A stretch of 64,000 bases of DNA from Octopus vulgaris (Eukaryota), in NCBI GenBank assembly GCA_951406725.2, contig OX597833.1, positions 46,810,001 to 46,874,000 of the forward strand, read 5' to 3'. The position numbers were made by a program, and so were the translations under genes. The notes beneath the pieces were generated by a model that was given only the letters and a program-made list of their open reading frames with translations, was not told the DNA's origin and made no database searches. The stretch's first letter is position 1, and every line of letters begins with the position of its first letter. This document shows, piece after piece, positions 10,006 through 61,524 of this stretch.

Positions 10006-10049
<44 letters not shown>

Positions 10050-10130
10050 CGAGACAAAACCACTATTTTAAAACCAAACAAGGAAAGACTTAATCAAAAC
10101 ATAAAATTTTAATATAAATTAAATAAACCG

Positions 10131-10173
10131 CCACTACAAATGTTTCATGTCTGCTCCGACAATCTTCAGGTGG
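10131..10173 (-). ncRNA. Minimal type I hammerhead ribozyme motif (mirror copy)
   Basis: Exact reverse complement of 10217-10259. Confidence 0.72.
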
Positions 10174-10216
10174 ATTTTCGATCTTCTAATTTGATACTGA
10201 TTAGAAGATCGAAAAT

Positions 10217-10259
10217 CCACCTGAAGATTGTCGGAGCAGACATGAAACATTTGTAGTGG
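10217..10259 (+). ncRNA. Minimal type I hammerhead ribozyme motif
   Basis: CCAC-CUGAAGA-u-UGUC(ggagca)GACA-u-GAAAC-auuu-GUA-GUGG: stem I CCAC/GUGG, canonical core, stem II, very short stem III, GUA cleavage triplet. Confidence 0.75.
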
Positions 10260-10433
10260 TGTTTATTTAATTTATATTAAAATTTTATGTATTGATTAAG
10301 TCTTTCCTTGTTTGGTTTTAAAATAGTGGTTTTGTCTCGAATTATATTATATAATATTTTACTATAAAATTGGATTTAACCCTAAATCTGATTTTTCCCT
10401 GTAATTTTGGATTCATTCCCTAATAATTATTAT

Positions 10434-10480
<47 letters not shown>

Positions 10481-10508
10481 AAAAAGGAGATGTAGAACAC
10501 GAGTTGTG

Positions 10509-10800
10509 ATATATAAAAAAAGGAAATGAAGAAAATGCTGACAAAATAATTTAAGTAAGGGAGAGTGTATTTAATTAGGTGAAAGTTCTTTTTACCGGTT
10601 GCGCATTTGTTATGCTTATCAAAAGATATTTTTTTAAGAGAGAAATATCTATCAGAAAGGAACTCTATCTCTCTTAAAAAAATATCTTTTGATAAGCATA
10701 ACAAATGCGCAACCGGTAAAAAGAACTTTCACCTAATTAAATACACTCTCCCTTACTTAAATTATTTTGTCAGCATTTTCTTCATTTCCTTTTTATATAT
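10509..10800. repeat. Second near-perfect palindrome (~133-bp arms, 24-nt loop)
   Basis: 10509-10643 is the reverse complement of 10668-10800. The ORF track shows the same peptide on both strands. Adjacent to (TA)n tracts. Confidence 0.93.
10686..10723 (+). ncRNA. Variant hammerhead-like motif (U3-A8 core, GCAA in place of GAAA); mirror copy at 10588-10625
   Basis: cuu-UUGAUAA-GCAU(aacaa)AUGC-GCAA-CCGGU-A-aaaag, with palindromic ACCGGU at stem III. Stem I is weak. Confidence 0.4.
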
Positions 10801-10828
10801 ATATATATATATATATACATACACACAT

Positions 10829-34969: not shown

Positions 34970-35349
34970 TTAAGGACTCTGCCATTCATGACACCTTTAT
35001 TGGTCAAGGGTCCAACCCATAAAATTACTGGACATTTGATAAAAAAAAAATGACAAAAATGTGTTGGTGTGTACACATGCAGTAGAGTAGGAGGCAGATT
35101 TAGGGTCTCCATAGGTCAATGCTGATTAAGCATTTGCCCACATACATGCAGACCTGGATAAGATGCTTTGAGGAAGACAAGCAGCTGTCTCATCATCATC
35201 ATCATCATCGTTTGACATCTGATGGTACAGCTCGTTCACTTGACCACAATAATTTTCAAGCCATTGGTGTTGGACTCCTGCATCTTGTTGGTCATCCAAC
35301 ATCCTGCTGCTGAGGTCTTCACCATATTCTGGCACAAGAGACCAAGTGG

Positions 35350-35531
35350 TTGCCCAAGGCATGTGGCTTGCCCAAGGCATGTGGCTTGCCCAAGGAATGT
35401 GGCTTGCCCAAGGCATGTGGCTTGCCCAAGGCATGTGGCTTGCCCAAGGCATGTGGCTTGCCCAAGGCATGTGGCTTGCCCAAGGCATGTGGCTTGCCCA
35501 AGGCATGTGGCTTGCCCAAGGCACATGGCTT
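35350..35531. repeat. 18-bp minisatellite (ttgcccaaggcatgtggc) x~10
   Basis: Almost perfectly homogeneous units that run directly into a SINE head. Confidence 0.95.
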
Positions 35532-35745
35532 AGTGGCTAGGGTGTTGGACTCATGATCATAAGATTATGATTTTGATTCCTGGGTCAGGTGACACAAGTT
35601 CTTGAGCAAGACACTTCATTTCATGTTCCTCCAGTCCACTCAACTGGCAAAAATGAGTAATCCTGCAATAGACCGGCATCCCATCCAGGTGGGAATCCCT
35701 GAAACCAAGAAACCAGCCCTTATGAGTTGGTATAACACGAGAAGG
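35519..35745 (+). mobile_element. SINE family D-related copy
   Basis: aggcacatggcttagtggctagggtgttggactcatgatc head and ttcttgagcaagacacttcatttca body. Confidence 0.8.
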
Positions 35746-59156: not shown

Positions 59157-59583
59157 AACCTTGTTGCAAATTCTACTTCCTATAACTGATCAGGTTTGGC
59201 CATCTCTCAGCCATCAGCAAACACACCAATGATAACACAGAATGCTGCTACCTGAATGCTGACATATTGGCCAAATCTGAGGACTTTACCAGATCATGTC
59301 ACTGGTAGTAGCAACAGGTGATGTGTACAAAGGGCAGGGGCATGGTCAATGTGGGCTGATGACCTACACCTACTGGGAATTCCTCATTTACAGGGTTCAT
59401 TACAGGTCCAAATTCCAAAGATCAATGATCAGGTTCAAAAGTTTCCTGAGACACTTGGGTCAGGGGAAATGCACCCACTGATACCTCCTATGTAGCTTGC
59501 ATGTGGCTCTGGACATCTAAGGGCATCACAAACCTGTTACTGCTTCACCTTGTGCAGTTTTTTTCCACCTGTCCATCTAAGAA
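59157..59583 (-). pseudogene. Decayed 18S rRNA fragment (3' region, roughly V7-V9)
   Basis: The plus strand carries antisense 18S landmarks in order: aaccttgtt..a.tt.tacttcct, ggtagtagc.ac.gg.g.tgtgtacaaagggcaggg, tactgggaattcctc, ggacatctaagggcatcaca.acctgtta.tgct, tgtcc.tctaagaa. Many CG-to-TG/CA changes. Confidence 0.9.
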
Positions 59584-61524
59584 ATGCTGCATTTTCCAAT
59601 TGATTGACCTGGATGTGATGGTGTACCACTGCCATGTTTGCACAGGCCGAGTCAACTGGATTACTACTATTCCTCCACAACTGATGCTGCAACCATGCCG
59701 TGATCACCAGTGAGGGCAACTGGACATGGCTGCAACACTACACTCAAAAGAGAGCTGTGGTAATAGCAAGCCCAGGCTACACATGGAGCTACCATTCGAC
59801 TTATAATATAATCGACTTAATCTGTTTGTCTGCCCTTGTTTGTTCCCTCTGTGTGTAGCCCCTTGTGGGCAGTAAAGAAATAAGAAACAACCAGACAGAT
59901 TGCTCCACCAACTGAGAACAGCCAAGCACCACCACCCATCAAATCAAGAAAGAGCTAACTAAAATGGTACTTTATTTCATCAATGCTGAAAGAATGAAGG
60001 GAAAAGTCAACTTTGGCAGAATCTGAACTCACTGTAACAAGTCAGAAGAAAAGCCACAAAGCATTTTTCCCCCAACAGTGTAACAATTCTGCCAACTCAG
60101 CACCATTATTGAATAATATAATGGTAACAATACTTAGTGAGATTACTGAACCAAAATCACAAAGAAAACCCATAGAAAATTATCTGCAAGAGAATAGGAA
60201 TAGGCAGCATGGACCCGCTTTTGCTATTTTAGGTGCCTTTGTAGTCGTGGGCAGATACAGATGCCCTCTCGACCCTCTCATCCTTGAACCAATGGAATAT
60301 CAAGGATGTGACAGCTGTAGAAAGAAAGACCTGCACCAGTGCTCAGCGGGTGCTCATTTCAGCTGAGCAAACAGGAGTGATGTGAAATGAAGTGTCATGC
60401 TCAAGGGCACAACTTGATGCTAAGTCTGGAACTAGAACCCACAATCTTAAGATTATGAGATGAAGACCTTAACCACAAGGCCACATACCTTCACTAACGA
60501 ACCATAAATAACGATTGTTGATTACTTAGATAGGTTCAAAGCCAAAGATTTTGGAGGGAGTGTATAGCTGATTATAACTACCCAATAATATTTGCTTTTT
60601 ACCCTATGTGGAGGAAACAAAGTTGACTCTGGTGAGATTTGAACCAAGAACTCAGAATACTTTTGTTTTAAACAGGTAGTAGGTCAATCTTTGTCGGCAA
60701 GGAGTATACTTGCTTAAATCAAGCCCAGCATGCTACTGGTACTTCCATGTGGAAGGCAATTATACCTAAGAAAGAAATTGTTACTGTGCATATAACTATT
60801 ATTCCAACATTTGAATTTAATTATAAAATATTAATGATTATTAATATAATAAATATTAATTGTTAACATGATTATAATATGATGGTGATTGGTTCTTTTA
60901 TGTCTTCAGTTAAACAGAGACAGTATGTTCATCATGAAAATCATTATTTTTAACATCTACTTTTCTATGTTTGCATGGATCAGATGAGAGTACATTGGAG
61001 CAGAGTGTTTTAAAGCCAGAATCCCTTCCTGATGCTGATCCCTACATTGTTTCCACACAAGATAATAATCTCAGTCTATCAAACAACAAACAGCTTACAC
61101 AGGTTTATGATGAAAACCGGGATGGTGGCACATAAAAAGCACCTTTCAAGCATTGGGCTTCACAGAGGCAATAACAAACGACCAAGACTTTTGGCAAAAT
61201 ACTGTGCTTGAGAAGAAAACCCATCAAGCCAAATTGTAGTTGTGGCAAATACTGGTGTCATGCAACTGACACCCATACCAGTGATATGCAAAAGCACTGA
61301 TTACTCTTGGAATGGTTGGTGATAGGAAGAGCATCCAGCTGTAGAAACCATACCTAATCAGACAGGAGACTGGTGCAACCCCTCAGCTTACCAGCCCTGA
61401 TCAAACCGTCCAACCCATGCTAATATAGACAGTGGATGTTAAATGATGATTTTACAGACAAGCAAAAAATTTTGATTACAGTATAACTGTGAAAACAGCA
61501 GAAAGATTGAGGAAATATCCTTAG

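What the first reader, a model, noticed from the sequence alone, without database searches (positions are those of the whole stretch)
10042..10347. 306-bp palindrome encoding an intact minimal hammerhead ribozyme on each strand
Seen: ~149-bp arms with only 2-3 differences and a 9-nt loop. The right arm reads CCAC-CUGAAGA-stem II-GAAAC-auuu-GUA-GUGG, and the left arm gives the same motif on the minus strand. Established: Penelope-like elements carry minimal type I hammerheads in their pseudo-LTRs and often leave inverted pLTR pairs. Inference: this is a young, non-coding, self-cleaving retroelement unit. A transcript through the whole palindrome would sequester the ribozyme in ~150 bp of dsRNA, whereas one starting in the loop would leave it free to fold. 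This could act as a built-in switch and as an ADAR or endo-siRNA substrate.
Basis: partly seen in the sequence, partly recalled or inferred. Interest (0 to 1): 0.85.

Follow-up and report, generated by a model that had tools for sequence, protein, structure and literature searches.

The report
Palindromic copies of spliced Penelope RNA
This hairpin-shaped DNA is one of hundreds of back-to-back copies of the intron-free front end of a Penelope-like jumping gene, hammerhead motif included, which matters because these elements are known for keeping their introns, and here both arms were likely copied from one spliced RNA.

Summary
The palindrome and both hammerhead motifs are real, but the element is longer (10042-10439) and asymmetric: only the right arm carries an ~88-nt tail. 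It is a dispersed (TA)n insertion of the 5' leader of a Hydra-clade Penelope-like element (PLE). Parent copies hold a 1.26-1.30 kb GT-AG intron just before the hammerhead; both arms here have it precisely removed. Genome-wide the exact spliced junction occurs 302 times, the intron-retaining one 93 times. In a sister subfamily, spliced copies follow a donor site shifted by mutation, so this is splicing, not deletion. Of 60 head-to-head pairs, 57 have one tailed and one tail-less arm; 0 of 83 pairs mix a spliced and an unspliced arm (about 33 expected). Best reading: the PLE enzyme copied one uncleaved, spliced sense RNA from two internal start sites into both ends of a cut microsatellite. That contradicts the antisense-template idea for head-to-head PLE junctions in this family and suggests why ORF-bearing copies keep the intron.

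The parts
10042..10190 (-). Tail-less arm: copy of the spliced PLE leader (8 nt of exon 1 joined to exon 2), ending at the first inferred RT start site and merging into (TA)n
10131..10173 (-). Minimal type I hammerhead motif, left arm; predicted cut between 10135 and 10134
10188..10207 (+).
10207..10208 (+). Splice junction AG|AT; parent copies carry a 1260-1297 nt GTATGT...TTTTAG intron here (mirror junction between 10182 and 10183 on the minus strand)
10217..10259 (+). Minimal type I hammerhead motif, right arm; predicted cut after 10255
10208..10351 (+). Exon 2 of the leader up to the first inferred RT start site
10352..10439 (+). Tail, present on this arm only; in autonomous copies it runs on for about 50 nt into the ORF start
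10008..10045 (.). (TA)n target, left flank
   Evidence: 64 of 73 family loci have (TA)n on both sides, 9 on one side
10440..10476 (.). (TA)n target, right flank, shared with a second, unrelated palindromic insertion

Best explanation
The palindrome is two head-to-head copies of the intron-free 5' leader (exon 1, hammerhead-bearing exon 2, optional tail) of a Hydra-clade Penelope-like retrotransposon, sitting in a (TA)n tract, and both arms were likely reverse-transcribed from one spliced, uncleaved sense RNA. Shown: the intron in parent copies, its precise absence in the short copies, one tailed and one tail-less arm, no mixing of splice forms within a pair, short overlaps at the centre. Inferred: transcription starts at an initiator-like site in the pseudo-LTR; the RT/GIY-YIG protein cuts both strands of (TA)n; each end primes cDNA at one of two internal start sites (either side of the tail); both cDNAs run towards the RNA 5' end and join by microhomology, often through the self-complementary TCAAAATTTGA in exon 1. 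Because the start sites lie upstream of the ORF, priming on the spliced mRNA's own leader yields only ORF-less mini-palindromes; ORF-bearing copies would come from read-through RNA that keeps the intron. The hammerhead is a passenger in this copy.
For: Intron: six parent copies have GTATGT...TTTTAG of 1260-1297 nt at the point where short copies read AG|AT. Counts: 302 spliced against 93 intron-retaining exact junctions; sister subfamily 460 non-intron against 316 intron-end matches, 96 of the first 100 listed carrying the exon-1 end, read by eye. Parents with donors GACTT|GT, GAATT|GT and a mutated, 4-nt-shifted GACTTGAAA|GT each have matching spliced copies (79, 4 and 13 of those 100). Four hammerhead haplotypes occur in both forms. 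57 of 60 pairs are tail/no-tail among 73 loci (binomial 3e-15). 0 of 83 pairs mix splice forms, 7.0 + 25.8 expected. Arms of one locus share a haplotype in 29 of 32 cases, 8.1 expected. 41 of 57 centres overlap by 3 nt or more, 15 by exactly 11. 24 of 25 copies with upstream promoter-side flank keep the intron; 20 of 20 leaders found upstream of an ORF end in the intron acceptor (30 loci examined). Frangieh 2024 (PMC11167929) showed in vitro, for another PLE, cutting and extension of both strands, two internal start sites bounding the tail, and no need for hammerhead cleavage.
Against: No biochemistry on this family. The start site of transcription is inferred from where arms stop; one spliced copy (L164) begins about 15 nt further upstream, and a contig of run X15 (RNA by guess) carries a spliced junction of a related subfamily with 165 further upstream letters, of which I saw 30, so read-through RNA may also be spliced. 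Shared haplotypes and splice forms within a pair would also follow from fold-back copying of a single cDNA or from later gene conversion between arms. Three of the 73 loci are local duplicates of others. Junction counts are exact matches only. 13 of 73 loci have a single arm. None of the five ORF-bearing copies of the window's own subfamily that I translated was whole.
Confidence: 0.62

Rival explanations
1. Same spliced sense template, but one cDNA only: it starts at the tail, reaches the RNA 5' end, folds back on itself (self-priming) and copies itself up to the first AT-rich site; asymmetric centres come from later deletions.
For: Explains tail/no-tail pairing, shared haplotypes and the absence of mixed splice forms just as well; 17 of 57 pairs turn at the self-complementary 11-mer; the tailed arm is longer at its 5' end in 20 pairs against 13. 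Self-priming was proposed by Arkhipova 2013 (PMC3846280).
Against: In 13 of 57 pairs (7 by more than 40 nt) the tail-less arm holds 5' sequence that the tailed arm lacks, which fold-back from the tailed arm cannot give without later deletion; large truncations fall 7 against 7 on the two arms. In vitro a PLE extends both target strands from RNA.
Confidence: 0.27
2. A non-autonomous, SINE- or retrozyme-like family: one old splicing event created an intronless master that then spread by itself.
For: Short copies are numerous and 97-100% alike; non-autonomous hammerhead elements derived from PLEs are known (bioRxiv 10.64898/2026.07.22.740005).
Against: Spliced copies track their intron-bearing parents across haplotypes and across three different donor sites, so splicing happened repeatedly; no spliced copy with a long upstream flank among 25; units are head-to-head, not tandem.
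Confidence: 0.05
3. One reading: a selected regulatory switch in which dsRNA formation controls ribozyme folding.
For: A read-through RNA would form about 148 pairs; the core and stems are invariant in the 12 haplotypes seen three times or more; two A>G differences appear only in run X9, RNA by guess.
Against: The centre is variable and 13 of 73 loci have one arm; no initiator in this copy; conservation is inherited from the parent pLTR; the A>G sites come from another individual with no matched DNA; the AUUU loop here weakens the predicted dimer stem (-2.9 against -6.4 kcal/mol for AAUU).
Confidence: 0.04
4. Fold-back artefact of long-read sequencing or assembly.
For: Long palindromes are a known artefact class (my own knowledge); no raw long read was laid.
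Against: Arms differ and only one has a tail, by a rule repeated across chromosomes; contigs of DNA runs X4 and X5, from two studies, show head-to-head joints with other centres.
Confidence: 0.02

Closest known systems
Hydra-clade Penelope-like elements (Craig et al. 2021, PMC8557442), e.g. Hydra-1_Obim, Hydra-1_Crog
   Same: C-terminal GIY-YIG, DKT, RxKWK, CxCX5C, CxxC and CxH motifs, (TA)n target, hammerhead in the pLTR, inverted 5'-truncated copy, tail at one end; U and U flanking stem II as in the listed Crog and Ajap hammerheads.
   Different: A different family from Hydra-1_Obim (other hammerhead; my motif was not found in the supplement); unit 4.9-6.0 kb rather than under 3 kb; tail about 85 nt rather than 30-40; carries a long 5' intron, and most exact leader junctions are spliced.
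Penelope of Drosophila virilis (Schostak 2008, PMC2377424; Cervera 2014, PMC4209133)
   Same: Short exon 1 after an initiator, intron in the 5' leader ending just before the hammerhead, most transcripts spliced.
   Different: Described as proliferating with the intron kept; here intron-less genomic copies outnumber intron-retaining ones. The splice point lies 9 nt before stem I, so splicing does not change the hammerhead stems as it does in D. virilis.
PAc, Poseidon of Anolis (Frangieh 2024, PMC11167929)
   Same: Two internal RT start sites bounding the tail, AT-rich target, uncleaved RNA as template.
   Different: In vitro no start-site difference between strands was seen; the genomic data here add that the two sites are paired one per end and that both arms share one splice form.
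Non-LTR retrozymes (bioRxiv 10.64898/2026.07.22.740005)
   Same: Short, non-coding, type I hammerhead, PLE pLTR origin.
   Different: Retrozymes are defined as tandem direct repeats; these are head-to-head pairs with a splice junction and no sign of a self-propagating master.

Membership tests
EN+ Penelope-like element (parent) | Single ORF with RT and C-terminal GIY-YIG | tested here: met
   L104 ORF 851 aa with DIPMG, YRDD, VYIG motifs; Pfam scan itself found nothing significant; homologs at 29-39% identity, many with PF26215
EN+ Penelope-like element (parent) | Partial tandems forming pLTRs, inverted 5'-truncated copy, tail at one end | tested here: met
   L061, L097, L101, L103, L186; 57 of 60 pairs
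EN+ Penelope-like element (parent) | Intron retained in genomic copies | tested here: inconclusive
   Met for ORF-linked leaders, 20 of 20; not met for the short copies including this one
Hydra clade | DKT, RWK, CxCX5C linker, CxxC and CxH around E and N, no CX2-5CxxC or CCHH | tested here: met
   against section 11 of PMC8557442; RWK appears as RIKWK; absence of CCHH read by eye
Hydra clade | (TA)n insertion and hammerhead motif | tested here: met
Hydra clade | Generally shorter than 3 kb | tested here: not met
   about 4.9 kb and 6.0 kb; described as a tendency, ORF length is typical
Hydra clade | Placement in RT phylogeny | not tested
   Reference proteins were compared by eye only
Minimal type I hammerhead | CUGAnGA, GAAA, NUH, stems I and II, short near-palindromic stem III | tested here: met
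   position 10.1/11.1 is U.U rather than the usual G-C
Minimal type I hammerhead | Compensatory base changes in stems | tested here: inconclusive
   Stems invariant, changes confined to loops, N7, H17 and stem-II flanks in the 12 common haplotypes; the pattern used preselects the core; more distant families gave no motif
Minimal type I hammerhead | Self-cleavage | not testable with these tools
   Rfam gave no hit; monomer fold is not the predicted minimum
Non-LTR retrozyme | Tandem direct repeats of hammerhead units | tested here: not met
   60 of 73 head-to-head, 13 single
MITE / foldback DNA transposon | Symmetric fixed termini, no RNA intermediate | tested here: not met
   Asymmetric ends, variable centre, splice junction

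The most novel reading that the evidence does not exclude
Penelope-like elements do copy spliced sense mRNA, more often than unspliced RNA in this family: a dimeric RT reads one RNA twice from two start sites into the two ends of a cut (TA)n tract. Since those sites precede the ORF, spliced templates give only dead-end mini-palindromes, which would dissolve the long-standing puzzle of intron retention without an antisense template, and would seed the genome with many hundreds of ready-made dsRNA hairpins.
Probability: 0.5. Interest if true: 0.78.

Novelty: new variant of a known kind. Interest (0 to 1): 0.62.

Why it matters
Intron retention is treated as a hallmark of PLEs, and Arkhipova 2013 (PMC3846280) left open whether an antisense or an unspliced sense RNA is the template, proposing antisense self-priming to explain both retained introns and head-to-head junctions. 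Here head-to-head junctions join two precisely spliced arms hundreds of times, which an antisense template cannot give. The family offers a genome-scale record of the reaction (paired start sites, one splice form per event, microhomology joins, uncleaved ribozyme) and has intact ORFs for an in vitro test. The single locus is an ordinary by-product; the value lies in what the family shows.

Tried and rejected
Rfam: no hammerhead at gathering score or E up to 10. Energy folding gave no support beyond shuffles for single arms (z 0.3-1.1). Pfam and PDB sequence scans of the ORF gave nothing meaningful. Sixteen loci of more distant Hydra-like ORFs gave no leader hammerhead, so no covariation test across families (the script stopped on an index error after covering them). 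No ORF of a host gene was recognised among 43 long frames of the window (by eye), so read-through transcription is unknown. The idea that the sister subfamily never makes spliced copies was an artefact of my pattern and was overturned. Earlier-findings look-ups were empty. Lunse et al. on dimeric PLE hammerheads was not held.

Full report
Observation. The palindrome is there: arms 10042-10190 and 10200-10347, two mismatches and one gap, 9 unpaired nt. Each arm holds CCAC-CUGAAGA-U-UGUC-GGAGCA-GACA-U-GAAAC-AUUU-GUA-GUGG, pointing outwards; predicted cuts after 10255 and between 10135 and 10134. Rfam does not recognise it, and the hammerhead fold is not the predicted minimum for either arm; stem III has a mean pair probability of 0.08 and 0.01.

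Family. A search of the own genome (2.8 Gb, 227 contigs) gave 1127 candidates, 40 scored, top hits 97-100% identical. The host is probably an octopus; this is my inference from genome size and from named homologs in Argonauta and Octopus, not a tested fact. I took all 73 distinct loci among the first 100 listed exact junction matches (contigs 1 to 5): 60 are head-to-head pairs, 13 single arms; 57 pairs have one arm with the tail and one without, 1 has two tails, 1 none, 1 is ambiguous (binomial 3e-15 for 57 of 59). Three loci are local duplicates of others, which does not alter the picture. 64 of 73 have (TA)n on both sides, 9 on one. The centre varies: 41 of 57 junctions overlap by 3 nt or more, 15 by the self-complementary 11-mer in exon 1, 8 have extra letters between the arms. 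Contigs of two DNA runs from separate studies show the same kind of joint with other centres, so the architecture is not an assembly artefact, although no read spanning this very locus was seen.

Parent. A pattern for the longest 5' ends gave 18 matches, 6 of which read on into GTATGT instead of ATCG. These long copies carry a GT-AG intron of 1260-1297 nt between a 33-nt exon 1 and the hammerhead exon. Upstream lies a 3' UTR and an RT/GIY-YIG ORF; downstream the tail runs into the next ORF, whose ATG is 282 nt after the acceptor. The 851-aa ORF of L104 has RIKWK, DKT, CxCX5C, CxxC..E and CxH and lacks CX2-5CxxC, the diagnostic set of the Hydra clade (PMC8557442, section 11). 12 of 132 protein matches have stop-free frames of 821 aa or more at 96% identity or more (read by eye). 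It is not Hydra-1_Obim, whose hammerhead differs. No tree was built.

Splicing. Exact spliced junctions number 302, intron-retaining ones 93. The sister subfamily has 316 intron-end matches (first 100 listed all intron ends) and 460 others, 96 of the first 100 being exon 1 joined to exon 2 (both read by eye). Its parents have other exon-1 ends and donors, one of them mutated so that the next GT lies 4 nt further on; 13 of the 100 spliced junctions use exactly that shifted donor and 4 match a third parent variant. One locus has both arms joined 10 nt upstream of the usual acceptor (L189). Four hammerhead haplotypes occur in both spliced and unspliced form. Deletion cannot track donor mutations in this way, and a single intronless founder cannot explain it; splicing of sense RNA happened repeatedly.

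One template per event. Pairing listed junctions on opposite strands within 12 kb gave 27 spliced/spliced, 4 unspliced/unspliced and 0 mixed for the window's subfamily (100 and 34 of 93 rows, limited to the range both lists cover), and 24, 28 and 0 for the sister (90 of 100 rows after dropping 4 unclear and 6 out-of-range, and 100 rows); 7.0 and 25.8 mixed pairs would be expected from independent arms. Arms of one locus share the hammerhead haplotype in 29 of 32 parsed cases (33 loci; permutation mean 8.1, maximum 19) and differ by 0.8 against 3.2 positions between loci. Whether the second arm comes from a second priming on the RNA or from fold-back of the first cDNA is not settled. Against simple fold-back, the tail-less arm is the longer one at its 5' end in 13 of 57 pairs, and truncations over 40 nt fall 7 and 7 on the two arms; later deletions at the centre could mimic this. 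Frangieh 2024 (PMC11167929; parts 1-2 of 4 read) found, for a Poseidon protein, cutting and extension of both strands, two internal start sites that bound the tail, a predicted dimer and no need for ribozyme cleavage, which fits twin priming.

Why long copies keep the intron. No arm in the 73 loci was seen to pass the initiator-like AATTCACTTC (the reference starts there; the 12 spliced matches lack the parent's upstream sequence). Of 25 copies with the upstream flank, 24 keep the intron and the one spliced copy begins only about 15 nt earlier. All 20 leaders found upstream of an ORF among 30 loci end in the acceptor. I infer that spliced mRNA primed on its own leader yields only these mini-copies, and ORF-bearing copies come from read-through RNA. 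Against this, one contig of run X15 (RNA by guess) has a spliced junction with 165 upstream letters.

The ribozyme. In the 12 haplotypes seen three times or more, core and stems are invariant and change falls in loops, N7, H17 and the two positions flanking stem II (the pattern preselects the core, and rows include overlapping loci). That suggests constraint in the parent lineage but shows no covariation. Cervera 2014 (PMC4209133, passages) report no cleavage for a single minimal PLE hammerhead and low cleavage for dimers. The AUUU loop here gives a weaker predicted dimer stem than the AAUU of other subfamilies. Copies span the cut site. The switch idea has no support; dsRNA from read-through is plausible, and two A>G differences in run X9 lack matched DNA.

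Literature. Inverted pLTRs, a tail on one end, (TA)n targeting, Hydra elements in octopus and leader introns are all known (PMC8557442: passages, section 11, supplement rows; PMC2377424 passages; PMC3681739 passages; PMC6765202 passages; PMC12910113 passages; bioRxiv 10.64898/2026.07.22.740005 part 1 of 5). Arkhipova 2013 (PMC3846280 passages) propose an antisense template for intron retention and head-to-head junctions and call the question open. I found no report of abundant spliced genomic PLE copies in searches; these cover open-licence papers only, Schostak 2008 says 'the majority' of PLEs contain introns, and Arkhipova 2003 and 2006, Lunse 2016 and Repbase were not seen, so prior notice cannot be excluded. 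The labels initiator and X-box are recalled, from no call.

Verdict. A real, ordinary-looking PLE by-product whose family carries an unusual and testable record of how PLEs copy RNA: new variant of a known kind, interest 0.62.

Noticed in passing
window 10477-10802: A second, unrelated palindrome in the same (TA)n tract: 135-bp arms, 24-nt centre, about 35-nt tail on the left arm only; 745 genome candidates with the same tail/no-tail habit. Parent not found; L177 has arms of about 430 bp. It holds a possible variant hammerhead (UUGAUAA, GCAU/AUGC stem, GCAA, ACCGGU-A), seen by eye and untested.
   Followed up: partly
L201:2190-2235: A third short insertion in (TA)n with a clean minimal hammerhead (GUUU CUGACGA A GAGC UCC GCUC GAA ACGU A AAAC); related sequence flanks L003. 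Suggests several families of such mini-copies.
   Followed up: no
L061 (ORF middle), L104: Long asparagine/lysine-rich stretch between RT and endonuclease, as reported for rotifer Penelope ORFs.
   Followed up: no
L033, L038, L042, L043 upstream of exon 1: X-box-like CCATGGTAAC about 45 nt before the inferred start (label recalled), a possible germline promoter element.
   Followed up: no
L189: Palindrome whose two arms both join exon 1 to a point 10 nt upstream of the usual acceptor, possibly an alternative splice form.
   Followed up: partly
window 59515-59985 (-): Degenerate, interrupted fragment of eukaryotic small-subunit rRNA.
   Followed up: no
P0003-P0039: Many homologs of about 700 aa at 29-39% identity come from metagenome assemblies, some on short contigs seen many times; their hosts are unknown.
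   Followed up: no
window 35314-35565: Tandem array of an 18-nt unit taken from a common SINE-like repeat.
   Followed up: no
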